Positions 1,932 to 63,739 of a stretch of DNA of 64,000 bases are shown here, piece by piece; the first letter of the stretch is position 1, and each line of letters begins with the position of its first letter. Source of the stretch: Patescibacteria group bacterium (GTDB lineage Bacteria; Patescibacteriota; Minisyncoccia; UBA6257; GWB1-50-10); the NCBI GenBank assembly GCA_024239035.1, contig JANBVK010000001.1:235010-299009 (forward strand). Reading direction: 5' to 3'. The translations under genes and the position numbers were made by a program. Below the pieces are notes generated by a model that saw only the letters and a list, made by a program, of their open reading frames with translations, searched no databases and was not told the DNA's origin.

Positions 1932-2309
1932 TCAAACAGCAAGAAAACCTTTCACTTTCTTCACCAAATCTTCAATTGACATTTTGGCCTTAACAAAATA
2001 ACCGATTGCTCCCAACACCTGACCTTTCTCAACGTCACTCTCCTGACCTAAGTTGGAGATAATAACTATCGGCGCCTGATTATAGGAAGGATCATCTTTC
2101 AGGATTTCCATCAACTCAAACCCCGATACCTTCGGCAAGATAATATCCAAAAGGACCAAGTCGGGCTTGATACTTTTTAAAACTTTTAATGCCTCCTCGC
2201 CATCTCTGGCTAAGTTAACAATAAACTTCTCCTTTTCCAGCCGTTGCTTAAGGAGATTACCTAAAAGCGGTTCATCTTCAACTAAAAGGATGGTTTTTTG
2301 ATCTGGCAT
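1932..2309 (-). CDS. Single-domain response regulator (CheY-like receiver)
   Basis: LLVEDEP...DLVLLDIILP...K motifs with phospho-acceptor Asp context; 125 aa. Confidence 0.8.
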   Translation of the reverse strand: MPDQKTILLVEDEPLLGNLLKQRLEKEKFIVNLARDGEEALKVLKSIKPDLVLLDIILPKVSGFELMEILKDDPSYNQAPIVIISNLGQESDVEKGQVLGAIGYFVKAKMSIEDLVKKVKGFLAV

Positions 2310-2574
2310 TGACCTGATTATAACATTTACCCCGTTAGAAATCCCCCTATCTATAGCAATAGTAGGGGGGGCAGCCTCGACATAATATCGGGGCTTGTTT
2401 CTGATTGGGGTAAGTTGAAAACTTTTTTAGTTGTCCCATACCCGCCATAGCTTTAGAGCGACGGCGGGGGCCACCTACTTAAAGGCTGAGTGGCCAACAC
2501 CTTCCGCCTTATCAGCGGAATCGACTCAAACTAACAAGAGGTTTTATAACGGCTGTTATAAACTTTATTAGTTT

Positions 2575-4100
<1,526 letters not shown>

Positions 4101-4461
4101 AAAAAATTGGGACAACTAAAAAAGTTTTCAATTCTGGTTCTCCGATTTCACAATATCGGAGGTATATTCATATTTTCAAGTAACATTCGGCTCAATCATA
4201 GTCAAAATAATACACCCACCTCACTCGACATGATCGACGTCTCAAGTGGGGTGGATGTACTAAACTCCAAAGTTCTCTCCAAATTTTACTATCTATGTAC
4301 TATCCATTGTTAGTTTCAGTATAGTGAGTCACCCGTGCTTGTCAATCCCCCACATAAGTACTTATTTTGTGGGGGGTCAACTCCCTAAAACCAAGGGTTT
4401 AGTTGAAAAATTCAGTCTCAGGTGCTAATATTCTTGCAATCTAAACTATGAAACCTAAACC

Positions 4462-4737
4462 ATGAAAAGTGATATTCACCCACAATATTACCCGAAGGCT
4501 AAAGTAAGCTGCGCCTGCGGAAACAAATTTACGGTTGGAGCCACCAAGTCGGAGATCAAAGTTGAGATCTGCAGCAAGTGCCACCCTTTCTATACCGGCT
4601 CACAAAAGCTTATTGACACTACTGGAAGAGTAGAACGGTTTAAAGCAAGGAAGGCGAAGGCTGCCACCAAGAACGAAAAGGCGCGAAAGAAGAGTACGCA
4701 AAAAAGTGCTAAAAAAAATCCGCGTAAATCCGCGTAG
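4462..4737 (+). CDS. rpmE: Ribosomal protein L31 with Lys-rich C-terminal extension
   Basis: [10 protein letters not shown]...CACGN...[10 protein letters not shown] matches the L31 zinc-ribbon signature (CxxC...CxxCHPF). Confidence 0.9.
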
Positions 4738-4767: not shown

Positions 4768-5448
4768 ATGGAACTTAAAGTTAAAAACCGCATAATTCTT
4801 GGCAAAAAAGTAAAACACCTTCGCGACAAAGGTTTAATCCCTGCTGAACTCTTTGGTCACGGCGTAACGAACAAACACCTGGAGATTCCGGAGAAAGATC
4901 TTATAGATATTTATAAAAAAGCTGGCAGTCACACCATTATCCAGGTGATAACAGAGGAAGGAGAAAAAATACCAGCCCTGATTTCAGAGGTGCAACACCA
5001 TCCCTTATCAAGAAAGCCTCTTAATGTTGATCTCCACCAGATACGAATGGATGAAATTATTGAAACCGGAGTTCCAATTAAATTTAAAGGTGAAGCCCCT
5101 GTCGAGAAAAGTGGATTTTTTGTGATGAGGGTCTTAGATGAAATTGAAATTAAGGCACTGCCGGACAAGATTCCTCACTCTTTTGAAGTAGATCTGTCTA
5201 CTCTTAAAGAAGTTGGCCAGAGCATTAACGTAAACGACATTACTGTTCCTAAAGAAGTTAAAATATTAACTCCTGGAGAAACAGTTATCGCAACCGTAAC
5301 CGAACGCGAAAAAGAAGAAGAGGAAACTTCTTCCCCGGCCGCCGAGGCTACCGAGGTTACTGCTAAGACTACGCCCGAAACCACTGAAACGCCAAGTAAG
5401 CCTACTGAAGCGGAAAAGAAAAAAGAACCGGAGAAATCTAAAAAATAG
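4768..5448 (+). CDS. rplY: Ribosomal protein L25 / general stress protein Ctc, with acidic and Thr/Lys-rich C-terminal tail
   Basis: N-terminal region (LIPAELFGHG...HLEIPEKDL...) and central beta-barrel region are L25/Ctc-like; 226 aa. Confidence 0.75.
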   Translation: MELKVKNRIILGKKVKHLRDKGLIPAELFGHGVTNKHLEIPEKDLIDIYKKAGSHTIIQVITEEGEKIPALISEVQHHPLSRKPLNVDLHQIRMDEIIETGVPIKFKGEAPVEKSGFFVMRVLDEIEIKALPDKIPHSFEVDLSTLKEVGQSINVNDITVPKEVKILTPGETVIATVTEREKEEEETSSPAAEATEVTAKTTPETTETPSKPTEAEKKKEPEKSKK

Positions 5449-5490
5449 TTATTTCTGAAACGTTATCCGCCCCTGTGCTATTATATAAAT

Positions 5491-6948
5491 ATGAGAAGGA
5501 TGTTCGATATAGTTCCCAAACGCCCTAACCGCTTAAACTTCTCTTACTCCAAGCGGTTCTTTTTCCCCTTAAACGCTTTTATGAAAATCACGGTAGCCGT
5601 GCTGGTTCTTCTGCTTTTTACGGGTTCTGTGCAGGCACCGCAAGTAGCCTATTACACCCGCGCGGCCGAAAACGAGGATGGAGAAAACAATAAAACTACC
5701 CAAGAAGAACGGCTGGAACTGGAAAACAAACTCACTGAATTAGAACAGCAAATTGTTGAACACCAAAACACTATTGATGAATATAAGAGACAGGGTAAAA
5801 CTCTAAATAATGAAATCTACGCCCTGAATGCACAAATCGGTCAAATTAATCTCAAGATTAAAGCTATTGGCCTGAATCTTGAGAAACTTAACGTTGATAT
5901 AACCGACACGCAGGCGCAAATCAACCGAAGCGAAAACAAAATTGACAGCCACAAAGTCGCTCTTGGAAAAGGTGTCCGGGATCTCTACGAAGCTGACAAC
6001 GTTGGCCTCATTGAAATTCTCCTGGCTAACAACAGGCTCTCCGATTTCTTCGGCAACATCAATGATATTGCTCTCGTCCAAAATAACCTGCGAATAGACC
6101 TAACAGACATCATAAAACTTCGCCAGGAACTTCTCGAACAAAAACAAGAACTTGCGCTCGAAAAAGAAGATGTCGAAAATCTCAGGACTTACCGAGAATC
6201 CCAAAAACAGACAGTAGCTGTAACAAAGGGAAAGAAAGCAAATCTCCTGGACATAACAAAAGGTAAGGAATCCGAATATCAAAAACTACTCATAGAAACA
6301 AAGAAAACAGCAACTGAGATACGGGGCAGAATTTTTAAATTTCTCGGCGGCGGCGAGCTTACCTTTGAAGAAGCGTATGACTACGCACGCCTCGCAGAAG
6401 GCGCTACCGGCGTACGCGCGGCCTTAGTCCTTGCAATTCTTGACCGCGAATCACTCCTCGGCAAAAATGTAGGCCGCTGCGGTTATAAAACCGCCATGCA
6501 CCCAACGCGCGATATCCCCTATTTCCTCGATATGCTACGACGCTTGAATATTGACCCAGATTCAACCCTGGCAAAGGTATCCTGTCCCAATGCTCACGGT
6601 TCCTATGGTGGTGCTATGGGACCGGCACAATTCATCCCATCAACATGGGAGCTCTATGAAGATAGAGTCGCTAAAGTCACAGGAAACAACCCCGCAAACC
6701 CTTGGAATAATTCAGATGCGTTTGTCGCGACCGCGATCTACATTGAGGATCTTATCGGCTCATCAGGCTGCCAAAGTTACGGAGAAAAAAACAAACACAT
6801 CGTTCCGAAACAAACTCTTATTGAACGGTGCGCTGCTGCTAAGTACTATTCCGGGAAACGGTGGTATACCTACCGTTTCTGGTACGGCGAACCGGTGGTT
6901 ACAAAGGCAAACGAGTTTGAGGAAGATATTAAAATCTTAACTAGCTAG
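5491..6948 (+). CDS. Secreted coiled-coil protein with C-terminal MltB-like lytic transglycosylase domain; probable true start at 5581 (MKITVAVLVLLLF signal peptide)
   Basis: Signal peptide, then a long heptad-rich region (PcsB/EnvC-like coiled coil), then ...GSYGGAMGPAQFIPSTW..., which resembles the AGAMGPMQFMPATW motif of the MltB / Slt35 family. Confidence 0.65.
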   Translation: MRRMFDIVPKRPNRLNFSYSKRFFFPLNAFMKITVAVLVLLLFTGSVQAPQVAYYTRAAENEDGENNKTTQEERLELENKLTELEQQIVEHQNTIDEYKRQGKTLNNEIYALNAQIGQINLKIKAIGLNLEKLNVDITDTQAQINRSENKIDSHKVALGKGVRDLYEADNVGLIEILLANNRLSDFFGNINDIALVQNNLRIDLTDIIKLRQELLEQKQELALEKEDVENLRTYRESQKQTVAVTKGKKANLLDITKGKESEYQKLLIETKKTATEIRGRIFKFLGGGELTFEEAYDYARLAEGATGVRAALVLAILDRESLLGKNVGRCGYKTAMHPTRDIPYFLDMLRRLNIDPDSTLAKVSCPNAHGSYGGAMGPAQFIPSTWELYEDRVAKVTGNNPANPWNNSDAFVATAIYIEDLIGSSGCQSYGEKNKHIVPKQTLIERCAAAKYYSGKRWYTYRFWYGEPVVTKANEFEEDIKILTS

Positions 6949-6951
6949 CAG

Positions 6952-7707
6952 CTACCCGCCGCTTTTCCGAAACGCTTTCACAATCGGCTCCAAGTTACCT
7001 TCCAAAATTTTCTCAATATTTCCCCATTTCTTCTTGATTCGGTGATCGGTGATCCGGTCTTGGGGAAAGTTATAAGTGCGGATCTTTTCCGCTCGTTCCG
7101 CAGAGCCAATCTGTTCTCTTCGAAGTGAACTTATCTCTTCCACTCCCGCAGACTGCTGAGCTTCATAAAGCTTCGCGCGCAAAATATTCATTGCTTGTTC
7201 CCGGTTTGCGCTCTGTGAACGCCCGGCTTGAGAAGAAACAGTTACACCTGTCGGAATGTGGCGAATTCGCACTGCGGTCTCAACTTTGTTTACGTTCTGT
7301 CCGCCCGGACCGGAAGACCGAAAAAAAGAAACTTCCAACTCATCCGGCTTAACTTGCACTTCCTTTGGTTCAACTACGGGTAGTACGGCAACAGAGGCGG
7401 TTGAAGTATGAATCCGTCCCGACTTTTCGGTTTCGGGGATGCGTTGCACCCGATGAACTCCAGATTCATTTTTCAAAATCTCGTAGAGATTTTGTCCTGA
7501 GCCTGTCGAAGGATTACTTATCTCCGCAACAAACGTTTTATATCCCCTGACCGAACTGGCGCTAGAATCCAAAACGGTAAAGCGCCACTCGCGCTTCGCG
7601 GCGTACTTCTGATACATACGCGCCAAATCCCCGGCAAAAAGCGACGCCTCTTCACCTCCGGTTCCGGCACGGATTTCTAGGATTATTCTGTTTATATTCT
7701 GTTCCAT
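6952..7707 (-). CDS. prfA: Class I peptide chain release factor, RF1-like, lacking the N-terminal domain 1
   Basis: GGQ motif (SSGPGGQNVNK), a PxT-type codon-recognition tripeptide in context (RVQRIPETEKSGRIHTS) and a C-terminal RTYNFPQDRITDHR. It aligns to E. coli RF1 from about residue 110 onward. Only 251 aa. Confidence 0.85.
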   Translation of the reverse strand: MEQNINRIILEIRAGTGGEEASLFAGDLARMYQKYAAKREWRFTVLDSSASSVRGYKTFVAEISNPSTGSGQNLYEILKNESGVHRVQRIPETEKSGRIHTSTASVAVLPVVEPKEVQVKPDELEVSFFRSSGPGGQNVNKVETAVRIRHIPTGVTVSSQAGRSQSANREQAMNILRAKLYEAQQSAGVEEISSLRREQIGSAERAEKIRTYNFPQDRITDHRIKKKWGNIEKILEGNLEPIVKAFRKSGG

Positions 7708-25564: not shown

Positions 25565-26122
25565 TCAATTTGCCTTTAGCGATTTCCCATACGCTGCGAT
25601 TACGATGATGAAACTGAAGGCTTGTTGGAGTGCCAGAAGTGGATATTCCTGCATCCACATCAGAGTTCCTGCAGACCCGTTCATTAGTAGATACCAAGGC
25701 CACCCCGTTGGATTCTTTCTAGCAAGAAGATATGTCCCGACGAGAAATCCAATCGCAACACCAAGCTCCAACGCCTGAGTGAGCGTCACAAGTCCACCAA
25801 AGACGTACAAGCTAACACCAATTCCAACGAACGTCATTACTATTGCGAAAGTATTGAGCCACTCTGGTTCCTTACCACTACCACGAAGGGCAATAATTAG
25901 CCCGAGAACCATTGATGGCGCACCTCCGCCCTCGACAAAGATGAGAATCAAATCACTTTCAATGAAAAAGATTACCATCCACATTGGAAGACCGATAAGA
26001 TATGCTATCCATCCAGAGATTCTCCAGCGACGCCCACAAACTGACTCATCTCCCTCTGCAATGAGGAGGAAGACTTTTTGCAGAAGATAGCCGAGACCAG
26101 CAAATGCTTCGACGACTCCCAT
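25565..26122 (-). CDS. Small polytopic membrane protein, possibly a PnuC-like transporter
   Basis: 185 aa, Trp-rich TM helices (NPTGWPWYLLMNGSAGTLMWMQ) reminiscent of the PnuC family; weak. Confidence 0.35.
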   Translation of the reverse strand: MGVVEAFAGLGYLLQKVFLLIAEGDESVCGRRWRISGWIAYLIGLPMWMVIFFIESDLILIFVEGGGAPSMVLGLIIALRGSGKEPEWLNTFAIVMTFVGIGVSLYVFGGLVTLTQALELGVAIGFLVGTYLLARKNPTGWPWYLLMNGSAGTLMWMQEYPLLALQQAFSFIIVIAAYGKSLKAN

Positions 26123-29451: not shown

Positions 29452-29628
29452 GTCCTCAATATGTCCACGTATGTGGATAAATTGAGGACAAATGAAATCC
29501 GCTCTGATAATCAATGTCTCCTACTCAACAAATTATCAATTGGAAACGGTAACTGGGTAGCCGGTAAAAAGCGGAGAATTTACTGCAAACGAAAAATGAG
29601 CCAGTCAATTGGCTCATTTTTCGGATTG
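29452..29628. repeat. Composite repeat family R2/R3, copy C: palindrome GTCCTCAATATGTCCACGTATGTGGATAAATTGAGGAC (29452-29489), a CCGGTAAAAAGCGGAGAATTTAC block, and a terminator-like AACGAAAAATGAGCCAGTCAATTGGCTCATTTTTCGGATT (29586-29625)
   Basis: Direct comparison with copy B; the terminator hairpin TGAGCCagtcaattGGCTCA has an A-run and a T-run on either side, so it could terminate in both directions. Confidence 0.85.
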
Positions 29629-29964
29629 TGGTTTTATACGATAAACCACTCCTCTACCAATTTTGCCCACTTGTTCCACGCCACCTTCTTTTTCGAGCTC
29701 CTCCATATAGCGGGCAACAGACCTGCGAGAGATACCTAAAACCTCACGAATATCGGAATTGGTAAGTTCTGGCCGCTCTTTAAGGAGTTCAAGGATTCTC
29801 ACTTTGTTCTTATTCTTCCTAACAGTTCTGTCTAGTGCGATATTACAAATTCCCGCAAACTCTTTCGCGGTGGTTGTGTCATGCTTTTTTGCCTCACTAC
29901 AAGACAACCAGAACAGGATAAACAAAAGGGCAACAAAGAGAAAAAGAAAGATTAATAAATTCAT
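29614..29964 (-). CDS. Membrane-anchored winged-helix (HTH) transcriptional regulator
   Basis: N-terminal TM (LLIFLFLFVALLFILFWL), then a C-terminal HTH (LTNSDIREVLGISRRSVARYMEELEKEG). Confidence 0.6.
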   Translation of the reverse strand: MNLLIFLFLFVALLFILFWLSCSEAKKHDTTTAKEFAGICNIALDRTVRKNKNKVRILELLKERPELTNSDIREVLGISRRSVARYMEELEKEGGVEQVGKIGRGVVYRIKPQSEK

Positions 29965-30014
29965 GCTTTAAATTTATACCTGCTTTAGCTATCGTGTCAG
30001 ATCCTGCCGAGGTT

Positions 30015-30512
30015 TTAAATTTTCTTAAAAAGTTCGGTATCCATTATTCTCCACCACATCATTTCCTCGCTTACTTTGTATCTCTGAGCCAGTGATTTCA
30101 CATCTTTAATTCCTTCTGCAAAATCTCTTTTCAAAAAATCAATTGGCACTAAAAGCTCTGCCGCAAATTTGTTTACGGCTGTTTCTTCGGGATTCTTAGA
30201 ATTGAAATCATCACCATTATTTCGCAAATCGGCATGTCCCAATATCAGATGCCCTAATTCGTGTGCAATTGTAAATCGTTGACGATGTGGGTGATGATCT
30301 CGATTGTATGCAATTACATGTTTTTTGTTTTTGCTAATATGCGCGCCGGAAACCTTATTGATAAAAGAATGCGACACGAGTTCAATTATAATCTTTCGCT
30401 TCCTGCTAATATGTTGAATAACTTCTTTAATACCAATAGGAGGGTTATTTATTTGTAGTTCACTGATAATTCGACGCGCTAATTTTTGTGGGAATTGTAT
30501 TTTACTTTTCAT
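30015..30512 (-). CDS. ImmA/IrrE-family (COG2856, DUF955) zinc metallopeptidase
   Basis: HEXXH motif in context: FTIAHELGHLILGH. 165 aa; the start overlaps the methyltransferase stop by 4 nt. Confidence 0.75.
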   Translation of the reverse strand: MKSKIQFPQKLARRIISELQINNPPIGIKEVIQHISRKRKIIIELVSHSFINKVSGAHISKNKKHVIAYNRDHHPHRQRFTIAHELGHLILGHADLRNNGDDFNSKNPEETAVNKFAAELLVPIDFLKRDFAEGIKDVKSLAQRYKVSEEMMWWRIMDTELFKKI

Positions 30513-31864
30513 AATTTCTTTTTAAGTATATCGATTGAATATTGAAGTTTTCGCTCTTCTTCTACTGTCAACCCCTGTTCAGACCTAAAAGCGACCTTAA
30601 CTACTGGATCATTTCTTTTAACAACGGTTCCTCCGTAACTTAATGGGAACCTTCTATCTATCAATTTTGGCTCAATCGCTTGATTGAGCACTTGTTTTAT
30701 TTCAAAAACATTTGCACGAGAACTTTTCTTTGTCGAATCAATTATAATAACAAACTCCGTATTGTGTCCTCTATCCTCTACGTTGACCCCAGAATATCTT
30801 TGTGAACTTACTCTATATCGTTTATATTTCTTAAGCACTATGTCGAGGTATCCTTTATCAGCAAACATATCTAACAGCGTATTGAAATTTACCAAACCAT
30901 CCGTGGAGTAACTTATTAAAATAAATCTGGCTTTTAATTTACTGATTAATTCTCTAAATGCTTCTGTGGCCGTATCTCGATAGCAATAGAAGCTCTTTCT
31001 CTCGGTTCGCCAATCCAATCTGATAGCCGATTTGTTGACCGTTTTGCCATTGACCAAAATCTCTTTGTTAATTTTTGGTTTATCCCAGAGGTCAATAGTG
31101 CTCAAAAGATGGTAATTTGAACCATATTGATGTTGATTATATGGAGGGTCTATATAAGCAATATCGCACTTAATATTAGAAGCCAACTCATTTGCGTCCT
31201 CTTTATATACGTTATTTTCTTTACCGTTATTGTGAAAAAGTGGCGGCTCAATCGTTAATCGACTTCTGATTCTATAGAGAGCAGTGCTCGTTGATCCACC
31301 CCACCCCCGATGATAGGCCTTGAAAACACCTGAGGTATTACTGCAGTAAGCTCCTTGAAAAATTAGTGGCGCTAACAAAACTCGCATCTCACTTTCATTG
31401 ATAGTTCCATCCTCTCTCCACTCTCGTATCTTTTCTCTGATCGCATCAATTCGTCGACCGTTCTCTTGCGTATAGAACATACGTTCTTTATCAGGGTTAG
31501 GATTTTCATCATTTGCTGGGCAATAGTACGTAGCAATATAGCCTTTGATTGGTTTGAGATTATTCAAAATACCAAACGCCTTCTGCATTCCGCCTAATTT
31601 TCTAAATGTTGGCGGGCGGTTTCGTTTAATATAGGTATGGTTGATCGTATAAGAATACGGCTCCCAATCATTACTAATGACTTGGTAGCCAAAAACTTTG
31701 GCTAATCTTGATATCACACCGCTACCTGCGAATACATCAAAAAACACGCCGGAGTTCACGCCAGTTTTGCGAACCGCTTGTTCAATAAGAGGCACTAACC
31801 GCCTTTTGTTCCCTATATAGGGTATGAGCTGATTATATGTAAAACTATCTTGATTGCGCGGCAT
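30509..31864 (-). CDS. N6-adenine DNA methyltransferase (Dam-like D12 class) of a type II restriction-modification system
   Basis: IPYIGNKRRL (Dam KWAGGK-equivalent region), FAGSGVIS (FxGxG SAM-binding motif) and catalytic DPPY. Confidence 0.8.
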   Translation of the reverse strand: MPRNQDSFTYNQLIPYIGNKRRLVPLIEQAVRKTGVNSGVFFDVFAGSGVISRLAKVFGYQVISNDWEPYSYTINHTYIKRNRPPTFRKLGGMQKAFGILNNLKPIKGYIATYYCPANDENPNPDKERMFYTQENGRRIDAIREKIREWREDGTINESEMRVLLAPLIFQGAYCSNTSGVFKAYHRGWGGSTSTALYRIRSRLTIEPPLFHNNGKENNVYKEDANELASNIKCDIAYIDPPYNQHQYGSNYHLLSTIDLWDKPKINKEILVNGKTVNKSAIRLDWRTERKSFYCYRDTATEAFRELISKLKARFILISYSTDGLVNFNTLLDMFADKGYLDIVLKKYKRYRVSSQRYSGVNVEDRGHNTEFVIIIDSTKKSSRANVFEIKQVLNQAIEPKLIDRRFPLSYGGTVVKRNDPVVKVAFRSEQGLTVEEERKLQYSIDILKKKL

Positions 31865-31865
31865 A

Positions 31866-33383
31866 TTATCTTTGAGTTTGGGTATCCCTTATGAGGTTAT
31901 GCCAAAGTTTCTCTACATTAATGATCGGAATTTTGATCTTTTTCTTAGTAGTATAGATGTCATTCGGATAATTGCTGATCCATGCAGCTACAAATCTTGA
32001 TCGGGTAATATCGTCTTTCGGAGACTCGTGCGCACTAAACTCGAATGCATCATATTCTGCCTCAATTTCAAATAGTCGACCTTTATAACTATCAACATTT
32101 TGAATGATATCATGACGGATCGAAAATAAGTCCATTAAATCCAAAGATTTAAGTGATTTATTAAACCTTTCAGCAGGAACGAGGTCATCTAAATAAATAC
32201 AAAGGAGATCTGGATAGGCCGTATCCACCCGCACCACGAGAATTATCTTTTCTTCTTTGTCTTGTTTAACCTTAAGAGCTTTAGCTAAGCTTAGATTTTC
32301 TATATAGGAAATAACATTTACTTCTTGGTTTGCCTCTTTATACTTTTTAATAAGTTTAATTTTGTCCTCGAACGTACTTGTAATTTGGGCATGTAGCTGT
32401 TCTCTATATTTTTTGAGACGAGCGTTTTGAAATGGCGCGGTGTATGGAGCTTTACTAATGTCCTCAATTTTATTTAACTTGTGATATTCCGCGAGCGGGA
32501 GTATTGGTTGGCCTGTTTTGAAATATAACCATTCCTCACCGTTTTTAGGCTTAATAAAAAAGTAAAAGATATTAGCGGCGTCAGGTTCTAATTTTTTAAA
32601 CACTAAATTATCGAGGACTCGAAACGGGATAGTGTAAAAATCTTTATATTCCAAATCATCTGTTAATATTTTGAAAACAAAATTCGGGCAGTTTTGATGG
32701 TAGATAAAACTTTTTGGTATCGAGTAATAAATCCTCGGATGAGATTTAAGTATCTCCTCATAAGGTATCGTCGGATACGGAATATAAATATGTTCGCGCT
32801 TGTTGGTTTCAAAACAAGCCTTCCGTTGCTCAAAAAAATATTGAGACACTTTCCTGCCGCTGTTTGATATCTCTTGGATCACTGCACGCTTCGGCCACTT
32901 TTTATCATAATCTCGCAATTTAAATTCTTGAGTTTTGCGATCCAAGAAAACCTGTAACGCTTTCTCTACTTCTTGTTTGAATGCTTCAAACTTTTTATTG
33001 CTGACTTTCGTGATGTTTGTAAATTGAGGTTCAACATCACCGTCCGATCGAACCCTAAAAAGCAGGATACCATCTTTTATTGGTCTAAATAAAATCTCAG
33101 GTAACCTGTAGTAGTAATCATCAGAACCTCTAACAAGACCTATCGCATTGAGAACCATTGAAATGTTGCCGGGGAGCCCCCGTAAAAATGAGCGAATCTT
33201 TTTTTCTGGTACTGACCTACCAATACCCATCATCATTCCGATATAAGCAGGGTTGTCGCGAAAAAACTTTAGAATGTCATTAGTTGAAAATCGATTTGCT
33301 TTCAGCTTGCCATGTTGGACAAAAATGAGAAACTTTAATGGGACGCGGTCTTTTTTAATAACCATGGTTTGGGGATTATCCAC
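31866..33383 (-). CDS. Putative cognate restriction endonuclease (505 aa hypothetical), 1 nt upstream of the methyltransferase gene
   Basis: Position and tight coupling to the methyltransferase; no conserved motif expected or seen. Confidence 0.45.
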   Translation of the reverse strand: MDNPQTMVIKKDRVPLKFLIFVQHGKLKANRFSTNDILKFFRDNPAYIGMMMGIGRSVPEKKIRSFLRGLPGNISMVLNAIGLVRGSDDYYYRLPEILFRPIKDGILLFRVRSDGDVEPQFTNITKVSNKKFEAFKQEVEKALQVFLDRKTQEFKLRDYDKKWPKRAVIQEISNSGRKVSQYFFEQRKACFETNKREHIYIPYPTIPYEEILKSHPRIYYSIPKSFIYHQNCPNFVFKILTDDLEYKDFYTIPFRVLDNLVFKKLEPDAANIFYFFIKPKNGEEWLYFKTGQPILPLAEYHKLNKIEDISKAPYTAPFQNARLKKYREQLHAQITSTFEDKIKLIKKYKEANQEVNVISYIENLSLAKALKVKQDKEEKIILVVRVDTAYPDLLCIYLDDLVPAERFNKSLKSLDLMDLFSIRHDIIQNVDSYKGRLFEIEAEYDAFEFSAHESPKDDITRSRFVAAWISNYPNDIYTTKKKIKIPIINVEKLWHNLIRDTQTQR

Positions 33384-35704: not shown

Positions 35705-36922
35705 CTACGGCACGAGGTTCCTAAAAAACTTTCTAACCCCGCCGATACTGCCTCCCGATTTTCTATTCTCTGAGTCTGCCCATAAAACCAATCCCACCGC
35801 CGTAGAAAATTCAGGATCATCCAGAAGTTCTTTGTGGGCGGAATTCAAAATCTCAAAACTACCAAGCTCCGGATAACCAACGTGGGCCGGCAACCGCAAC
35901 TCCCGCCTCACTAATTCAACCATACCGGCCAGCTTAACTCCTCCCCCAGTTACAACAACACCGGCTGGAAGCTGGGTGCTTCGCCCCAAGGCTTTCAGCT
36001 CATTATTAACAAGATCCAATATTTCCGCAACTCTGATTTCAATAATTTCAGCAAGGAAGCGCCTTGAAATGTCACCTTTGGCGGTGGGGTCAAAATCAAC
36101 AAGTTCAATTGTTTCTCTCCTTGAAATTTCCCTGGCAAGGGCGAATCCGTGGGTTAGCTTCAGTTTTTCGGCAGCATCAATTGAAGTTTTAAAACCAACG
36201 GCAATGTCATTGGTGATATACCCCACGCCAACCGGCAAACTCTTTACGTGCGTAACTTTATTTTCTTCAAAAATGGCCATCGAAGTGGCTCCAAAACCGA
36301 AGTCAATCATTAAAACCCCCAAATCTTTCTGCTTTTTCGTCAGTGTCGCCCGGGCGGCGGCAAGCGGGCTAAAAATTAAACCACCAACCCGGATCCCCAC
36401 CCGTTCCAAACTTTTTACAAGAAGATTAACTTGGGGTGAAAAAGCTTCAACAATAAGAGTAGATACTTCCAGTCGATTACCGGTCATCCCTAAGGGGTCG
36501 TGGATATCGCCCACGTCGTCAATAAAATACTCACGTGCGATGTTATGAAGAATCAAATGATTCGGCGAAAGCTTAACTGCCCGCGACCCTTGAATAACTT
36601 TTTCAATGTCGTCTTGCTGGATTTCTTGGTCAGGCCGGGAGACCACGACCACCCCTCTGGAATTACGAGGTTTAATATTCTCGCCGTTTACATTTACAAA
36701 AACGTTATGAACAGTCTTTTTAGAAATTTTCTGGAGATCAACAACTAAATCTCTCAAAATCCTAGTTGCGTCCTCCACGTCCACTAAAAGCCCTTTACGC
36801 AGGCCCGATGAGGGGTATTTAAGAGCAGCGACAACCGAGAGCTTGCCTTTTTTCTTCTCTTCGGCCACGACGCACTTTATCTGAGACGAGCCGATATCTA
36901 AACCAGTGATTATATTAGCCAT
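35705..36922 (-). CDS. ftsA: Cell division protein FtsA (actin-like ATPase)
   Basis: N-terminal GLDIGSSQIKCVVAE, phosphate-2 and adenosine motifs; 405 aa; directly upstream of ftsZ. Confidence 0.9.
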   Translation of the reverse strand: MANIITGLDIGSSQIKCVVAEEKKKGKLSVVAALKYPSSGLRKGLLVDVEDATRILRDLVVDLQKISKKTVHNVFVNVNGENIKPRNSRGVVVVSRPDQEIQQDDIEKVIQGSRAVKLSPNHLILHNIAREYFIDDVGDIHDPLGMTGNRLEVSTLIVEAFSPQVNLLVKSLERVGIRVGGLIFSPLAAARATLTKKQKDLGVLMIDFGFGATSMAIFEENKVTHVKSLPVGVGYITNDIAVGFKTSIDAAEKLKLTHGFALAREISRRETIELVDFDPTAKGDISRRFLAEIIEIRVAEILDLVNNELKALGRSTQLPAGVVVTGGGVKLAGMVELVRRELRLPAHVGYPELGSFEILNSAHKELLDDPEFSTAVGLVLWADSENRKSGGSIGGVRKFFRNLVP

Positions 36923-37328
36923 ATGAGAGTATTTTCTCTTCTAATCGTTCCATCTCTATCCTATCACTCTTTTTCGTGTGTGTGTATCCCAAGAGGTGGA
37001 GCAAGCCATGAATCGTGAGACGGCCTAAATTTTCTCCTCGACGGTGAATATGGCCCGGTGCCAGGTAAATCTCACCAAGGTAAGAAAGACGGCTCTCCGG
37101 ATGCGGCCATTTTTCTGATCGTTCTTTAAAACTCAAAACGTCAGTAATTTTATCCCTTTTGCGAAACTCTTTATTCAACAACTGCATCCTCTGGTCGCTA
37201 ATAAGGTATATTTCCAGTTGAACACCACCTTTCTTAAGGTAAGTTAGAGCAAGCTTAGCTGCTTCTTTAGCCTCTTTCTCCAACCCTCTAAATTTCTTAC
37301 TCAAACTAAAAACGGATACTCTGTTCAT
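36915..37328 (-). CDS. ybeY: rRNA maturation endoribonuclease YbeY
   Basis: HGLLHLLGYTH (H-x-x-x-H-x-x-x-x-x-H zinc motif), 137 aa. Confidence 0.85.
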   Translation of the reverse strand: MNRVSVFSLSKKFRGLEKEAKEAAKLALTYLKKGGVQLEIYLISDQRMQLLNKEFRKRDKITDVLSFKERSEKWPHPESRLSYLGEIYLAPGHIHRRGENLGRLTIHGLLHLLGYTHTKKSDRIEMERLEEKILSYG

Positions 37329-37347: not shown

Positions 37348-37824
37348 CTACTCGTGAACTCCCTCTAATTTCTTTTTTATTAATCCGGCAACCATTTGTG
37401 CGTCGGCCTTGCCTTTAAGCTGTTTCATTGCATCCCCCATCACTTTACCAAAATCAGCCGGACCTCCCGGTTTCACTCGCACCATTGTCTCGTCAAGAAT
37501 TTTTACTATCTCCTCCTCATTCATCTGGGAAGGCAGATACTCCTCAATAATGTTAAGTTCTTTCTCCTCCTTCTCGGCTAATTCGCCTCTCTTTCCTTTC
37601 TTATACATTTCAATCGCCTCTTTCCTCTTTTTCGCTTCTTTTCTTAAAACCTCTAAAACCTCATCATCTCCCAGGACAACTTCTTTCCCTTCACTCTTTC
37701 CTTTCTTCTCAATTTCTAAGTTATGAGTTGCCGAGAGGACCAAGCGTAGAGTTCCGCTTCGCAACCCATCCTTTTCCTTCAATGCTTGAACTAAGTCACT
37801 CTTTATTTTCTCCTCCAATGTCAT
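37348..37824 (-). CDS. GatB/YqeY-domain protein
   Basis: Helical 158-aa protein with the YqeY-like pattern (LKEKD...RLVLSA...). Confidence 0.6.
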   Translation of the reverse strand: MTLEEKIKSDLVQALKEKDGLRSGTLRLVLSATHNLEIEKKGKSEGKEVVLGDDEVLEVLRKEAKKRKEAIEMYKKGKRGELAEKEEKELNIIEEYLPSQMNEEEIVKILDETMVRVKPGGPADFGKVMGDAMKQLKGKADAQMVAGLIKKKLEGVHE

Positions 37825-38036
37825 GAATGGCCGTATTTTCTCTGCCGAGCAACTTGTTTCTTTTTTTGGATGCGATAAAGAGCAGAAGCGCGCCGTTTGT
37901 TGCGATTCACATTTCTGGAATGAAAACGCCTTTTCTTTGCTTCTTTAAGAATTCCGCTTTGCCTAATCCTCTTATTAAAGCGGTATAGAAACGAGCCTAG
38001 ACTTTCTCCTTCCTTTTTTTTTATTTCGATGGGCAT
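37821..38036 (-). CDS. rpsU: Ribosomal protein S21
   Basis: MPIEIKKKEGESLGSFLYRFNKRIRQSGILKEAKKRRFH fits the S21 family pattern. Confidence 0.85.
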   Translation of the reverse strand: MPIEIKKKEGESLGSFLYRFNKRIRQSGILKEAKKRRFHSRNVNRNKRRASALYRIQKKKQVARQRKYGHS

Positions 38037-39796: not shown

Positions 39797-40336
39797 CTAG
39801 TAACTTGGCGCACTAAACGCCATCACTTCATTAATCGGCCACAGACGGAAACGAGCAAAACCGACAATGTCGTCCTCTTCTAGTGGCCCCCAGCTCCTTG
39901 AATCAAAACTAAAATTACGGTTGTCCCCCATTACAAAGTACTCTGTAGAACTAAGCGTTTCATCAAAACTACCTCGCGTTCCTGTCCCCCAAAGATATGA
40001 CTCGGAAAGAATTTTTTCTTCCCCGTCTTCGTAAACCAGAACCTCACCATCTTTCACTACCACCCGCTCACCCGGTAGACCAATTATCCTTTTAATATAA
40101 AAAGCTCTCTTATCAGCCGGATATCTGAAAACAATCACCTCGCCGCGCTTTGGCTCACGGAAACGATACGTAAGTTCATCAACTAGTAAGTAATTATTAT
40201 CATAAAAATTAGGCTCCATACTGGAACCACTCACTAGAAAAGGTTGGGCTATAAAACTCCTAACCAAAAAAACTATCACTACCGCGATAACAAGGGTTTC
40301 AACTATTTCGAAGAAAGACCAAAGAAGTTTACGCAT
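39797..40336 (-). CDS. lepB: Signal peptidase I
   Basis: GSSMEPNF (box B Ser), catalytic-Lys box YIKRIIGLPGE, and GDNRNFSFDSRSWG box E. Confidence 0.85.
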   Translation of the reverse strand: MRKLLWSFFEIVETLVIAVVIVFLVRSFIAQPFLVSGSSMEPNFYDNNYLLVDELTYRFREPKRGEVIVFRYPADKRAFYIKRIIGLPGERVVVKDGEVLVYEDGEEKILSESYLWGTGTRGSFDETLSSTEYFVMGDNRNFSFDSRSWGPLEEDDIVGFARFRLWPINEVMAFSAPSY

Positions 40337-40381
40337 ATAATATGGCAGACAATAAAAAACTATGCGATAATTCTACAAAAT

Positions 40382-40930
40382 ATGCAACAAAAATTCAACC
40401 TTAAGCAGATTAAATTAGTTATCGGTCTCGGTAACCCCGGCAAAAAATATGAGGGCACGTACCATAACATCGGCTTTTTGTTCGTAGATTATCTAACAAA
40501 TCCGCCGGCTGGCGGACCAATTTCTAAGCCGCTCAAATCGAGCGTACACATGAACGAGTCAGGAAAATTTGTGCGAGCATCGATGAAAAAACGTGGGGTA
40601 AAACCCAAGGAATTGCTGATTGTCCACGACGATTCCGATATAATACTTGGGTCTTACAGATTCTCCTATCGTCGCGGTTCAGCGGGACACAAAGGGGTGG
40701 AATCAATTGTCCGGGTTCTCAAAACGAAAAATTTTTCCCGTCTCCGCATCGGCATCCGACCCAAAAAAGCGGGTCTGCCCGCCGGCTTGCCCGCCAAAGC
40801 TTTAGCATCGGCAGGAGCCCGGAGGGCGAAGGCGGGAGAGTTGGTGTTAAAAAAAATAACCCCAAGCCATAGAAAAACATTAGAAGAGGTATTTAAGAAA
40901 ATAGAGAAAGACTGCTTCTCCTTTACCTAA
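40382..40930 (+). CDS. pth: Peptidyl-tRNA hydrolase (start at internal ATG 40382; the ORF track starts at 40244, inside lepB)
   Basis: KLVIGLGNPGKKYEGTYHNIGF N-terminal signature; HDDSDI; RIGI. Confidence 0.8.
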   Translation: MQQKFNLKQIKLVIGLGNPGKKYEGTYHNIGFLFVDYLTNPPAGGPISKPLKSSVHMNESGKFVRASMKKRGVKPKELLIVHDDSDIILGSYRFSYRRGSAGHKGVESIVRVLKTKNFSRLRIGIRPKKAGLPAGLPAKALASAGARRAKAGELVLKKITPSHRKTLEEVFKKIEKDCFSFT

Positions 40931-47184: not shown

Positions 47185-47565
47185 TTACTGGTATAAATCG
47201 TGAAGAATGCGGCAGGGTTCCACGATACGCGGGTTTGTAATTTTATAGTAGACGTTTAGTCCTTCACGTCGCGTCTTAACGAGTTTATTGTGACGAAGTA
47301 CTGCAAGGTGCTGAGAAACATTTGCCTTTTTAAGCTTGAGTATCCCGACAAGTTTTTCAACAGGGAGTTCACGCTTACTCAAAATATTCAAAATCTCAAG
47401 GCGCTTTGAATTTGCCATAATCTTATAGATCTCGGCGTTACGGAGGTAGGTTGCTTTTGGAAATGGCGATTTCATAGTTTCGAAACTATGCAATAAGTAT
47501 ATAATAATACGGGCATCCTTCAAGGGGGAGTTATCCACGTCCAACTCGGTGGGAATTATAGACAC
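47185..47565 (-). CDS. ArsR/SmtB-family HTH transcriptional regulator
   Basis: LEILNILSK...EKLVGILKLKKANVSQHLAVLRHNKLV is the ArsR winged-helix signature. Confidence 0.75.
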   Translation of the reverse strand: MSIIPTELDVDNSPLKDARIIIYLLHSFETMKSPFPKATYLRNAEIYKIMANSKRLEILNILSKRELPVEKLVGILKLKKANVSQHLAVLRHNKLVKTRREGLNVYYKITNPRIVEPCRILHDLYQ

Positions 47566-47585
47566 ACCAGGTTCATAATTGACAG

Positions 47586-48098
47586 GTGGGAGGAAGCGGT
47601 TACCATAAAGTTATGCAACTTAAAACAAAATACCTGAACGGTTTACTTATTTTTCTTATAGTTGTGGCAGTTGTTCTGGGGTACGCTATTTACAGCCAGT
47701 CGCCCGAAAAACCCGAGCTTAAAGCAGAAATATCGTCCTTGACCCCGACCCCCGACGAGTCCGAAGTTTTAAACGTTCCCGACCTTAATGCGTCCACTGA
47801 AGAAAAACAACGTCACTTTGAGCTTGTAGTGCAGGTTGCTAAAACCGCTGAATTCTTGGATATAAGCGATTGCAATCCATCACCGGTAGTAATGAAAATA
47901 AAAAAAGGAGAAACGATAGCTGTCAGAAACAATGACTCAGCCGATCACTCAATTGTGTTTAATTTAGAGAGCATACACCCCATCCCCGCAGGGAGCACAA
48001 AAAATATTACCAACGTCTTTGATAAGGGTCCGGGAGTTTACGGTTATGGGTGCGACGCATCAACCGGTGCTGTCGGTATGTTCTTAGTGACCGAATAG
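47586..48098 (+). CDS. Membrane-anchored plastocyanin-like cupredoxin-domain protein (family X, member 1)
   Basis: TM anchor, then VRNNDSADHSIVFNLESIHPIPAG ... GPGVYGYGCDASTGAVGMFLV, which aligns with plastocyanin [21 protein letters not shown] ... YSFYCSPHQGAGMVGKVTV. His, Cys and Met ligand positions are present; the second His is absent. Confidence 0.6.
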   Translation: MGGSGYHKVMQLKTKYLNGLLIFLIVVAVVLGYAIYSQSPEKPELKAEISSLTPTPDESEVLNVPDLNASTEEKQRHFELVVQVAKTAEFLDISDCNPSPVVMKIKKGETIAVRNNDSADHSIVFNLESIHPIPAGSTKNITNVFDKGPGVYGYGCDASTGAVGMFLVTE

Positions 48099-62724: not shown

Positions 62725-62749
62725 AATAAAGATATGATATAATTATGCT

Positions 62750-63214
62750 ATGCAGGGTAAGGTTGTGATTACTATTTTCGTGCTATTAGCTGTTGGGGTA
62801 GGATATACCCTCTGGAGAAACGGAACCCCTTCATGGCTCTCCTTTAGTACCTTAAGTGATAAAGAGGCATTATTTATCAGCCTCCCTACAAGCACCTCAA
62901 CACAGGAAGAGGTAAGACGCCACCGTGAACTCGCGGGAAAACTTGCCGAAGACGGCAACGAAATAAATATCGCCGGATGTATACCCGACCCACCCGTGCT
63001 CAGAGTAAAAAGAGGTGATAATATAACTTTTATAAACAACTCTCAGGAAGAAGTTCGCTTGCAAATCGGTAACGTTGGCATCTTTAGTGTTCAACTGGAA
63101 GATACGCTTGTTGAGAGGGCAGAATTCGGTACAACAGGCGAAGCCCTAGTCGCTTATCTGTGCCACAGCGGTGATTCATCAGAGAGAGATTTTGGATTTA
63201 TTTTAATACAATAA
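62750..63214 (+). CDS. Membrane-anchored cupredoxin-like protein (family X, member 2)
   Basis: TM, then IPDPPVLRVKRGDNITFINNSQ...ALVAYLCHSGDSS...FGFILI, a cupredoxin-like beta pattern with Cys-His. Confidence 0.5.
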   Translation: MQGKVVITIFVLLAVGVGYTLWRNGTPSWLSFSTLSDKEALFISLPTSTSTQEEVRRHRELAGKLAEDGNEINIAGCIPDPPVLRVKRGDNITFINNSQEEVRLQIGNVGIFSVQLEDTLVERAEFGTTGEALVAYLCHSGDSSERDFGFILIQ

Positions 63215-63244
63215 AAGAAAGGTCGTTGTGCTATAATAAGACAT

Positions 63245-63739
63245 ATGAAAAACAAACTTACCCTTATTGTTATTCTCTTAATAGTAGCCGTCGTCATAAG
63301 CTATCTCGTTTACAGCTCGGGTGCACCGCAACCAGCAGAACAAGAATCACCCATACAACAGTTAACATTAACAACAGAAGAGAAGAAAGCAATTTTAAAC
63401 TTTCCTGCGGCTGATGCATCGGAAGGAGAACAACAAAGGTACTTTGAACTTGCAGAGAGGCTTGCGCAACAATCCGGGGTCTTGGACGTCACAAACTGCA
63501 ACCTACAGCCATTGGTACTAAACGCAGATTTGAAAAGTGACATAATACTAAAAAACACAAGCGACTACGATATCACGCTAGATATTGAAAACGAAAGCAA
63601 CACCGTCCCCGCAAATCAAGAGGTGGTTATAAAAGTTGACTTCGGCAAGGGAGGAGGACTCTACGGCTACGGATGCAACTCCGCTAATCCAGATGGGAGC
63701 AGCTCTGGTTCCGGGCTTATCCTCGTAGGAGCCGAATAA
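63245..63739 (+). CDS. Membrane-anchored plastocyanin-like protein (family X, member 3), paralog of 47586-48098
   Basis: RYFELAERLAQQSGVLDVTNCNLQPLVL...GLYGYGCNSAN..GSGLILV aligns with RHFELVVQVAKTAEFLDISDCNPSPVVM...GVYGYGCDAS..GMFLV. Confidence 0.6.
   Translation: MKNKLTLIVILLIVAVVISYLVYSSGAPQPAEQESPIQQLTLTTEEKKAILNFPAADASEGEQQRYFELAERLAQQSGVLDVTNCNLQPLVLNADLKSDIILKNTSDYDITLDIENESNTVPANQEVVIKVDFGKGGGLYGYGCNSANPDGSSSGSGLILVGAE

What the first reader, a model, noticed from the sequence alone, without database searches (positions are those of the whole stretch)
2520..2600. 16S rRNA 3' tail lacks a canonical CCUCC anti-Shine-Dalgarno directly after helix 45, and genes in the window lack SD motifs
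The 16S gene ends ...GUCGUAACAAGGCACCGGUAGCGGAAGCUGUCGGUGG. Instead of AUCACCUCCUUA, it is followed by AUUAAUUAAUUUAAAACUAAUAAA, then a perfect 9-bp hairpin (GUUUAUAAC-AGCC-GUUAUAAAC), and only then a degenerate CCUCUU. In keeping with this, the 20 nt upstream of most start codons show no GGAGG-like element. Examples are rpmE at 4462, rplY at 4768, the ABC gene only weakly, gap at 16703, pyrG at 14485, rpsU at 38036, and the paralogs at 48118 and 49381. This points to SD-independent initiation with a remodelled 16S 3' end.
Basis: seen in the sequence. Interest (0 to 1): 0.7.

Follow-up and report, generated by a model that had tools for sequence, protein, structure and literature searches.

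The report
Parcubacterial 16S rRNA lacking the anti-Shine-Dalgarno
This candidate-phyla-radiation bacterium has a 16S rRNA whose 3' tail has lost the sequence that normally pairs with mRNA ribosome-binding sites, and its genes lack those sites. This is real, but it has already been reported for a subgroup of Parcubacteria.

Summary
The 16S rRNA gene lies on the minus strand at 4103..2576. Its helix 45 is intact, and it ends GAUUAAUUAAUUU where the bacterial consensus has GAUCACCUCCUUU. There is no CCUCC anywhere in the 3' trailer.

SD 4-mers are at chance level upstream of 62 ORF-defined genes. The same crude method finds clear SD enrichment in Saccharibacteria-like control loci.

The "hairpin then CCUCUU" is not a displaced anti-SD. 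It is a trailer stem-loop inside a perfect 23-bp leader/trailer processing stem. CCUCUU is base-paired within it, and the hairpin is absent from the relatives sampled.

Among loci with the identical helix 45, the anti-SD-less tails fall in one clade of an NJ tree. Their genes show no SD enrichment, whereas canonical-tail relatives show weak enrichment.

What is enriched upstream of starts is an extended -10 promoter box (TGnTATAAT) ending 7-9 nt before the start codon. This implies leaderless mRNAs. A further 19 genes are tightly coupled to the gene upstream, and start regions are unstructured.

The organism is a Parcubacteria/Paceibacteria member. Tsurumaki et al. 2022 already reported anti-SD loss in a Parcubacteria subgroup, and Amin et al. 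2018 showed that anti-SD-less taxa also lack SD. This is therefore a new member of a known kind. Modest new points are the leaderless promoter geometry and a conserved AAUUAAUUU replacement tail.

The parts
2576..4103 (-). 16S rRNA gene, full length
   Evidence: Rfam RF00177, 1425 bits, model positions 1-1533.
2589..2612 (-). Helix 45 (CACCGGUAGC GGAA GCUGUCGGUG), intact with its GGAA loop
   Evidence: cmscan structure line. The identical sequence occurs in at least 120 metagenome contigs.
2576..2588 (-). 13-nt 3' tail GAUUAAUUAAUUU in place of GAUCACCUCCUUU. The anti-SD core is absent.
   Evidence: The nonamer AAUUAAUUU is identical in L166, L122, L160, L139, L146 and L192. For the pairs compared (window, L166, L122, L160, L146), the adjacent 16S bodies are 57-86% identical between lineages and the trailers are unalignable.
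2524..2579 (-). 3'-trailer stem-loop 1.
   Evidence: MFE and centroid fold. It is absent in L160, L122, L139, L166 and L172, where the tail runs on to (G)GUCGA or to the processing stem.
2441..2520 (-). Three further trailer hairpins, after the conserved GUCGA
   Evidence: fold of 2310..2620 has z = -5.6 against shuffles. Relatives share the architecture GUCGA-hairpin-AAGGU(A/G)UUG-hairpin.
2415..2437 (-). 3' strand of the pre-16S processing stem (GGGACAACUAAAAAAGUUUUCAA)
   Evidence: Perfect 23-nt complement of the leader strand at 4109..4131. The GGGACAACUAAAAAG motif is conserved in L222, L142 and L166.
4109..4131 (-). 5' strand of the pre-16S processing stem (UUGAAAACUUUUUUAGUUGUCCC)
4318..4345 (-). 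Likely 16S promoter, TTGACA-16-TATACT
   Evidence: (11 of 12 matches).
2317..2322 (-). Extended -10 box (TGT-TATAAT) 7 nt upstream of the ATG (2309) of the response-regulator gene 1932..2309. Leaderless candidate.
   Evidence: Pfam Response_reg starts at residue 7, which fixes the start codon.
14493..14498 (-). Extended -10 box (TGA-TATAGT) 7 nt upstream of the pyrG ATG (14485). Leaderless candidate.
   Evidence: The N-terminus MKKRKRRVRKPSKYIFVVGG is conserved in homologues, so the start lies at 14485 or 7 codons downstream.
5479..5484 (+). Extended -10 box (TGC-TATTAT) 6 nt upstream of the ATG at 5491 (SLT-domain protein)
12798..12803 (-). -10 box TATAAT 6 nt upstream of the ATG at 12791 (transketolase N-terminal subunit)
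18240..18245 (-). -10 box TAGAAT (with TTGGAA-17) 8 nt upstream of the ATG at 18231 (SpoU methylase)
   Evidence: The Pfam domain starts at residue 4.
62738..62743 (+). Extended -10 box (TGA-TATAAT) 6 nt upstream of the ATG at 62750
63232..63237 (+). Extended -10 box (TGC-TATAAT) 7 nt upstream of the ATG at 63245
36915..37328 (-). ybeY (the endoribonuclease that matures the 16S 3' end in model bacteria), in the cluster rpsU-yqeY-ybeY-ftsA-ftsZ
   Evidence: Pfam PF02130, 1.6e-24.
37821..38036 (-). rpsU (bS21, a platform protein next to the 16S 3' tail)
   Evidence: Pfam PF01165.

Best explanation
The window comes from a Parcubacteria (Paceibacteria-type, candidate phyla radiation) genome. Its 16S rRNA belongs to a clade in which the anti-Shine-Dalgarno sequence has been lost. 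The mature 3' tail, homologous position for position to GAUCACCUCCUUU, now reads GAUUAAUUAAUUU and cannot pair with GGAGG-type sites. The genes accordingly carry no such sites.

Initiation is SD-independent and, by inference, uses three routes:
1. Leaderless mRNAs for promoter-proximal genes. An extended -10 promoter box sits 7 +/- 1 nt upstream of the start codon, so transcription starts on or next to the AUG.
2. Termination-reinitiation, or coupling, for the many genes that overlap or abut the gene upstream.
3. Start-codon selection in A/U-rich, unstructured leaders for leadered genes such as rpmE and gap.

The hairpin and the CCUCUU downstream of the tail belong to the 3' trailer of the pre-16S transcript. 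They lie inside a 23-bp leader/trailer processing stem and are presumably removed during maturation.

Shown by sequence analysis: absence of the anti-SD, absence of SD enrichment, the promoter-box geometry, gene coupling, and the clade-wide pattern. Inferred: the mature 3' end, the actual transcription start sites, and the initiation mechanisms.
For: - Tail: cmscan aligns GAUUAAUUAAUUU to GAUcACCUCCUUu after an intact helix 45.
- No SD: 15 SD 4-mers at -20..-1 against 15.6 expected. Duplex energy to the canonical tail equals the Markov simulations, -3.32 against -3.32 kcal/mol. The positive control gives 32 against 7.6.
- Clade pattern: 120 metagenome loci share the identical helix 45. In an NJ tree the anti-SD-less tails cluster together, sister to canonical L121/L164. 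Decayed-tail loci have 8 SD 4-mers ending at -10..-6 against 8.8 expected, and canonical-tail loci have 29 against 10.4.
- Leaderless geometry: TATAAT is the only enriched upstream 6-mer (7 against 1.45 expected, z = 3.7). -10-like hexamers ending at -15..-6 number 19 against 2.8 expected. Sixteen of 62 genes have a box ending at -13..-5, against 4 of 62 in a control window (Fisher p = 0.006). TGn-extended boxes end at -9..-7 in 5 of 8 cases in the window and 11 of 18 in decayed-tail loci. Start codons are fixed by domain or N-terminal conservation for the response regulator, pyrG and SpoU.
- Coupling: 19 of 62 genes start within 12 nt of, or overlap, the same-strand gene upstream.
- Unstructured starts: mean 40-nt MFE is -2.6 to -2.9 kcal/mol at the start, against -5 to -6 inside genes.
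- Trailer: a perfect 23-bp leader/trailer stem, with CCUCUU paired in trailer stem-loop 1.
- Taxonomy: the best named pyrG hits are Patescibacteria, Paceibacterota, Brennerbacteria, Wolfebacteria and Parcubacteria.
- Literature: anti-SD loss in a Parcubacteria subgroup (PMC9297842). Anti-SD-less taxa also lack SD (PMC6107228).
Against: - Only 64 kb of a 729-kb scaffold could be examined, so a second 16S copy with a canonical tail elsewhere is not excluded.
- Genes were called by a crude longest-ORF rule. Some starts and a few ORFs are wrong. For example, 40244..40930(+) displaced the real signal peptidase gene at 39797..40336(-).
- Only about a quarter of the genes show the leaderless geometry, and 29 fall in an 'other' class.
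- The two-hexamer sigma-70 scan is not significantly enriched overall (36 against 28 +/- 5.5).
- No transcript ends were mapped.
- The exact conservation of AAUUAAUUU in divergent lineages is not explained by simple loss of function.
Confidence: 0.8

Rival explanations
1. The anti-SD is displaced rather than lost. A roughly 40-nt insertion (the hairpin) separates helix 45 from a degenerate anti-SD, ACCUCUU, which would still pair with AAGAGG-type sites.
For: ACCUCUU lies 46 nt after GGAU. An archaeal example of an insertion followed by CACCUCC exists (L073). A few genes have AGAGG- or GAGG-like strings at SD spacing, for example 16751..17167 and 25565..26122.
Against: The 13 nt directly after helix 45 align without gaps to the consensus tail. 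CCUCUU is base-paired in a stem of about 20 bp. The hairpin, and with it CCUCUU, is absent from relatives that share the AAUUAAUUU tail. Purine-rich SD 4-mers are not enriched upstream of starts.
Confidence: 0.03
2. Specificity has switched. The conserved A/U tail (AAUUAAUUU) is a new anti-RBS that pairs with complementary A/U motifs in mRNA leaders.
For: The nonamer is identical in at least four lineages. For the pairs compared, their neighbouring 16S sequence is 57-86% identical and their trailers are unalignable. This argues for purifying selection on the tail. Tail-complementary 5-mers show a bump at -5..-1 (28 against about 15 per bin).
Against: Duplex energy of the upstream regions to the real tail is no better than in simulations (-1.44 against -1.65 kcal/mol). 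Tail-complement 5-mers are flat from -55 to -6. The bump at -5..-1 is too close to the start for SD-like geometry and coincides with upstream stop codons and A/U preference. Amin et al. found no matching variant SD/anti-SD pair in 128 anti-SD-less taxa.
Confidence: 0.06
3. The tail is an artefact. It could be an assembly or chimera error at the 16S 3' end, a pseudogene, or one of two heterogeneous 16S copies with the functional copy keeping CCUCC.
For: The contig is metagenome-assembled, and only 9% of the scaffold was seen. Alteromonas carries two 16S classes.
Against: The gene is full length and high scoring. It has its own promoter and a perfect 23-bp leader/trailer stem spanning the tail. 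The same tail occurs in independent metagenomes. The genes of this genome lack SD, as expected if the tail is real. To my knowledge CPR genomes usually have a single rRNA copy.
Confidence: 0.04

Closest known systems
Anti-SD-less 16S rRNAs of a Parcubacteria subgroup (Tsurumaki et al. 2022, RNA 28:1041; PMC9297842)
   Same: A CPR/Parcubacteria organism whose 16S 3' end lacks CCUCCU. That paper detected the motif in only 48% of Parcubacteria and inferred that no SD helix forms.
   Different: The paper reports absence of the motif only. It describes neither what replaces it (here a same-length A/U tail, AAUUAAUUU, conserved in several lineages) nor SD usage or leaderless promoter geometry. Its reported overlap with uL1-lacking lineages could not be checked in this window.
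The 128 prokaryotic taxa without a CCUCCU anti-SD (Amin et al. 2018, PMC6107228; Lim et al. 2012)
   Same: Loss or strong divergence of the 13-nt tail goes together with absence of an enriched SD motif, and no compensating new SD/anti-SD pair is found.
   Different: Those taxa are mainly Flavobacteriia (Chryseobacterium, Elizabethkingia, Blattabacterium), Mycoplasma and Carsonella. CPR bacteria were not mentioned in the passages searched.
Bacteroidetes-type SD-independent initiation
   Same: Little or no SD usage, and start selection in A-rich, unstructured leaders.
   Different: To my knowledge of the Bacteroidetes ribosome literature, Bacteroidetes keep the anti-SD sequence, which is sequestered by ribosomal proteins. 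Here the sequence itself is gone.
Leaderless-mRNA initiation in Actinobacteria, Deinococcus and archaea, and in mammalian mitochondria
   Same: A promoter -10 element at a fixed short distance from the start codon, so that the mRNA begins at the AUG. Mammalian mitochondrial SSU rRNA also lacks an anti-SD (PMC10582724).
   Different: To my knowledge, Actinobacteria and Deinococcus retain a canonical anti-SD and use SD on leadered genes. No TSS data exist for this organism.

Membership tests
Anti-SD-less Parcubacteria 16S lineage (Tsurumaki et al. 2022) | The 16S rRNA lacks CCUCCU in the tail after helix 45 | tested here: met
   The covariance-model alignment shows GAUUAAUUAAUUU against GAUcACCUCCUUu. 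There is no CCUCC in the trailer.
Anti-SD-less Parcubacteria 16S lineage (Tsurumaki et al. 2022) | The organism belongs to Parcubacteria (CPR) | tested here: met
   The best named pyrG homologues (72-75% identity) are Patescibacteria, Paceibacterota, Brennerbacteria, Wolfebacteria and Parcubacteria. The 16S clusters with other anti-SD-less loci that share helix 45. No formal phylogenomic placement was done.
Anti-SD-less Parcubacteria 16S lineage (Tsurumaki et al. 2022) | Overlap with the uL1-lacking group (rplA absent) | not testable with these tools
   No rplK/rplA region is present in the 64-kb window (Pfam scans). The rest of the 729-kb scaffold could not be fetched.
Anti-SD-less prokaryotes in general (Amin et al. 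2018) | No enriched SD motif upstream of ORFs, and no new motif complementary to the variant tail | tested here: met
Bacterial leaderless-transcript organisms | A -10 promoter motif at a fixed distance of about 6-9 nt upstream of start codons in a sizeable fraction of genes | tested here: met
   There are 19 against 2.8 expected -10-like boxes ending at -15..-6. Sixteen of 62 genes have a box against 4 of 62 in the control window. TGn-extended boxes peak sharply at -9..-7.
Bacterial leaderless-transcript organisms | Mapped transcription start sites coincide with start codons | not testable with these tools
   No transcriptome data are available.
Bacteroidetes-type initiation with a sequestered anti-SD | The anti-SD sequence is retained in 16S rRNA | tested here: not met
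Displaced anti-SD after a 3' insertion (as in L073) | A canonical CACCUCC downstream of an insertion, conserved among relatives | tested here: not met
   Only ACCUCUU is present. It is paired in a trailer stem and absent from relatives.

The most novel reading that the evidence does not exclude
The anti-SD was replaced rather than merely lost. The same-length A/U tail AAUUAAUUU contains the palindrome AAUUAAUU. It has stayed identical in several Parcubacteria lineages whose compared 16S bodies are 57-86% identical and whose trailers have randomised. It may therefore be a functional element of a ribosome specialised for leaderless and reinitiating mRNAs. Possible roles are as a docking site for a platform protein, in 3'-end maturation by YbeY in a lineage where Era is mostly absent, or in 30S-30S pairing. 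Leaderless initiation would then be the principal entry route in this clade.
Probability: 0.2. Interest if true: 0.6.

Novelty: new member of a known kind. Interest (0 to 1): 0.35.

Why it matters
Loss of the anti-SD is rare in bacteria, and it marks lineages that must start translation in other ways. This genome is a clean example from the candidate phyla radiation: a 729-kb scaffold with one intact 16S operon that has a defined promoter and processing stem.

Three of its features make hypotheses directly testable by TSS mapping, 16S 3'-end mapping and ribosome profiling or structures:
- the geometry TGnTATAAT, then about 7 nt, then AUG;
- frequent gene coupling;
- a conserved A/U replacement tail.

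There is also a practical consequence. Gene callers that rely on ribosome-binding sites mis-place starts in such genomes. The public call of pyrG here is 21 residues too short.

Tried and rejected
1. The genome-contig scan used a helix-45 pattern ending GGATD. The pattern was too permissive. Nearly all 120 hits were GGATTACCTCC (SAR11, Saccharibacteria), which keeps the anti-SD.
2. A look-up of the full-length window pyrG in the contig index found nothing, because the public gene call is truncated. The truncated form, P0001, did identify the source scaffold.
3. I tested for a new SD complementary to the actual tail, using duplex energies and positional 5-mer counts. There was no signal at SD-like spacing.
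4. I tested for a displaced anti-SD at CCUCUU. This was rejected on structure and on absence from relatives.
5. The two-hexamer sigma-70 scan was not enriched overall. Promoters here seem to be of the extended -10 type without a good -35, so the single-box positional analysis was used instead.
6. Literature searches for leaderless initiation in Parcubacteria, Patescibacteria or CPR found nothing relevant.
7. The uL1 link could not be tested, because the window has no rplKA region.

Full report
WHAT IS THERE

The Rfam bacterial SSU model matches the minus strand of the window from 4103 to 2576, full length, at 1425 bits. No other Rfam family reaches its gathering score in the 64 kb, and ARAGORN finds no tRNA.

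I re-ran the covariance model on 2300..2800 to see the 3' end. Helix 45 is intact: CACCGGUAGC-GGAA-GCUGUCGGUG, window 2612..2589. The 13 unpaired tail positions read GAUUAAUUAAUUU (2588..2576) where the consensus is GAUcACCUCCUUu, aligned without gaps at top posterior probability. All four cytosines of CCUCC are replaced, and the C of GAUCA is also a U.

THE FLANKS

Upstream of the 16S 5' end, the leader contains UUGAAAACUUUUUUAGUUGUCCC (4131..4109). The 3' trailer contains its perfect 23-nt complement, GGGACAACUAAAAAAGUUUUCAA (2437..2415). This is the classical leader/trailer processing stem of a pre-16S transcript. A TTGACA-16-TATACT promoter lies at 4345..4318.

The roughly 140 nt between the tail and this stem fold into four hairpins (z = -5.6 against shuffles). 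Its 3' arm is GUUAUAAAAC, not GUUAUAAAC, so the tip is 8 bp followed by a bulge. The "degenerate CCUCUU" (2541..2536) is base-paired in the lower part of the same stem.

No CCUCC occurs anywhere in the trailer. Relatives with the same tail go straight from ...AAUUAAUUUAAAA to GUUUGUCGAC, as in L160, L122 and L139, or on to GGUCGA, as in L166. The hairpin with its CCUCUU is therefore a lineage-specific trailer insertion, not a displaced anti-SD.

RELATIVES

My first collection scan was badly designed. It returned mostly GGAUUACCUCC tails, which keep the anti-SD.

The metagenome scan used the exact helix-45 sequence and left the tail free. With an identical helix 45, the tails form a series:
- the canonical form CACCUCCUUUCUAGGGAG, in about half of the loci;
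- CACCUCUUUUAGAGG;
- CAUCUCCUUUCUAGGGAG;
- CAUCUUUAAAGGAU;
- CAUUCUAAAAGGAAU;
- CAUUUUUAAAGGAU;
- CAUUUCUAUUAC;
- CACUUAAUUU;
- CAAUUAAUUU;
- CAAUUAAACU;
- UAUAUAAUUU;
- AAAUUAACUA.

The window's 16S is only 81-82% identical to the nearest of these loci, L166 and L172. In an NJ tree of the 3' 1000 nt, the anti-SD-less tails cluster in one clade that is sister to canonical L121/L164. Some loci with insertions are misplaced in that tree.

The nonamer AAUUAAUUU is identical in the window, L166, L122/L160/L139 and L146/L192. Among the pairs compared (window, L166, L122, L160, L146), the 460 nt preceding helix 45 are 57-86% identical between these lineages, and the 40 nt after the tail are at noise level. 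This argues that the tail is part of the mature rRNA and is still under constraint. I have no explanation for this.

SD USAGE

I called 62 genes with a greedy longest-ORF rule.
- SD 4-mers (GGAG/GAGG/AGGA) ending at -20..-1 number 15, against 15.6 expected from the window-wide rate.
- Ten of 62 genes have one at -20..-4.
- Mean duplex energy of -22..-1 against the canonical tail is -3.32 kcal/mol, identical to first-order Markov simulations (-3.32 +/- 0.29). The -75..-50 control regions give -4.38 kcal/mol, which is more stable than the start-proximal regions.
- As a positive control, the same pipeline on Saccharibacteria-like loci (CPR, tail GGAUUACCUCC) gives 32 against 7.6 expected at -20..-1.
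- Among the helix-45-identical loci, canonical-tail loci show a weak SD peak (29 against 10.4 at -10..-6; 199 genes). Decayed-tail loci show none (8 against 8.8; 203 genes).

The loss of SD therefore goes with the loss of the anti-SD, in a group that already used SD only weakly.

A few window genes do carry SD-like strings. The clearest is 25565..26122(-), with GAGAGGAGG-5 nt-ATG.

WHAT REPLACES SD

An unbiased k-mer test finds TATAAT as the only clearly enriched upstream 6-mer: 7 genes against 1.45 expected, z = 3.7.
- -10-like hexamers pile up with their last base at -15..-6 (19 against 2.8 expected), peaking at -7/-8.
- Sixteen of 62 genes have such a box ending at -13..-5, against 4 of 62 in a control window at -43..-35 (Fisher p = 0.006).
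- TGn-extended boxes end at -9..-7 in 5 of 8 window cases and 11 of 18 cases in decayed-tail loci, with almost none elsewhere.
- Because transcription normally starts about 7 nt after the -10 hexamer, these mRNAs should begin at or next to the start codon, which makes them leaderless.
- Independent evidence fixes the start codon for three of these genes. The response regulator has its Pfam domain from residue 7. In pyrG, the conserved KYIFVVGG begins at residue 13. SpoU has its domain from residue 4.
- A further 19 genes start within 12 nt of, or overlap, the same-strand gene upstream, which is consistent with coupling or reinitiation.
- Leadered genes with well-defined starts, such as rpmE, gap and rplY, have no SD.
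- Start regions are A/U-rich and weakly structured. Mean 40-nt MFE is -2.6 to -2.9 kcal/mol at the start, against -5 to -6 inside genes.
- A test for a new SD complementary to the real tail was negative.

IDENTITY AND PRIOR KNOWLEDGE

The window is part of ENA ERZ23499938 scaffold_1, 729,382 bp. The best named pyrG homologues are from Patescibacteria, Paceibacterota, Brennerbacteria, Wolfebacteria and Parcubacteria.

Tsurumaki et al. 2022 (PMC9297842) already reported that the anti-SD motif is detected in only 48% of Parcubacteria. They also reported that the lineages lacking it overlap the uL1-lacking group. Amin et al. 2018 (PMC6107228) showed that 128 taxa lack CCUCCU and that these also lack SD motifs, with no compensating variant pair. 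Era, which reads GAUCACCUCC (PMC10582724), is mostly absent from Paceibacteria (PMC12641178). This may have removed a second constraint on the tail, although that is my inference. YbeY is retained, at window 36915..37328. I found no paper on leaderless initiation in these lineages.

VERDICT

The phenomenon is already described at the lineage level, so this is a new member of a known kind. The modest additions are the evidence for leaderless-type promoter geometry, the link between tail decay and SD loss among helix-45-identical relatives, and the conserved AAUUAAUUU replacement tail.

Limits:
- only 9% of the scaffold was examined;
- gene calls were crude;
- no transcript ends were mapped;
- the uL1 link is untested.

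Noticed in passing
window 2576-2585; loci L166, L122, L160, L139, L146, L192: The replacement tail AAUUAAUUU, which contains the palindrome AAUUAAUU, is identical in several lineages. For the pairs compared (window, L166, L122, L160, L146), the adjacent 16S sequence is only 57-86% identical between lineages and the trailers are unalignable. The tail therefore looks selected rather than merely decayed. Its function is unknown.
   Followed up: partly
loci L121-L240 (tails listed): In relatives, the first trailer nucleotides stay complementary to the (former) anti-SD as it changes: CCUCC...GGGAG, CCUCU-UUU-AGAGG, UUCU-AAA-AGGAA, AUCU-UUAA-AGGAU. A small tail/trailer hairpin of the pre-rRNA thus appears to be kept even where the anti-SD has decayed. 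I did not count this formally.
   Followed up: partly
window 12827-14485 (-): The public gene call for pyrG on this scaffold (P0001, 531 aa) starts at MSGVGKG. This cuts off the conserved KYIFVVGGV N-terminus, and the real ORF is 552 aa. It is an example of start mis-calling in a genome without ribosome-binding sites. P0003 and P0030 show the same truncation.
   Followed up: yes
window 6952-7707 (-): The class-I release factor gene encodes only 251 aa. The PCRF match starts at profile position 99 and the protein begins at ...IRAGTGGEEA, so the N-terminal domain 1 is missing. There are only 88 nt to the gene upstream. It has the PET (RF1-type) and GGQ motifs.
   Followed up: partly
window 25565-26122 (-) and 20240-20491 (-): Two genes carry strong canonical SD strings (GAGAGGAGG-5 nt-ATG and AGGAGA-8 nt-ATG) in a genome without an anti-SD. 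Both lie in the 18-27.6 kb stretch, which has large intergenic gaps and several ORFs without Pfam matches. They could be recent acquisitions or chance matches.
   Followed up: no
window 1-64000: The 16S gene stands alone. There is no 23S, 5S or tRNA gene anywhere in the 64 kb. A response-regulator gene follows the 16S trailer directly.
   Followed up: no
window 47565-47586: An ArsR-type regulator gene (47185-47565, -) and a divergent gene (47586-48098, +) are separated by only 20 bp. Each has a -10-like box (CAATTAT / CATAAT) a few nt before its GTG. Their promoters must therefore overlap each other's first codons.
   Followed up: no
loci L025, L031, L081, L052, L063, L056, L120, L073: Other genomes in the mis-aimed scan also lack CCUCC after GGAU. 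They include Rickettsiales- and alphaproteobacterial-type MAGs (GGAUUAUAAC, GGAUUACAUAA, GGAUUACAUUUU) and a Peribacteria MAG (GGAUUAUCGCC). A Heimdallarchaeota MAG has about 30 nt inserted between GGAU and CACCUCC.
   Followed up: no
window 29614-31864 (-): There is a cluster of a winged-helix regulator, an M78/IrrE-type peptidase and a D12-class N6-adenine DNA methyltransferase, followed by a 505-aa protein with no Pfam match (31866-33383). It may be a defence or mobile module.
   Followed up: no
window -1 position of start codons; loci L121-L240: Position -1 before ATG is strongly biased to T, or to pyrimidine generally. T is 41% in the window with 0% G, 55% in decayed-tail loci and 68% in canonical-tail loci. 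This fits the pyrimidine(-1)/purine(+1) rule for transcription start sites if many mRNAs start at the A of ATG, but it could have other causes.
   Followed up: no
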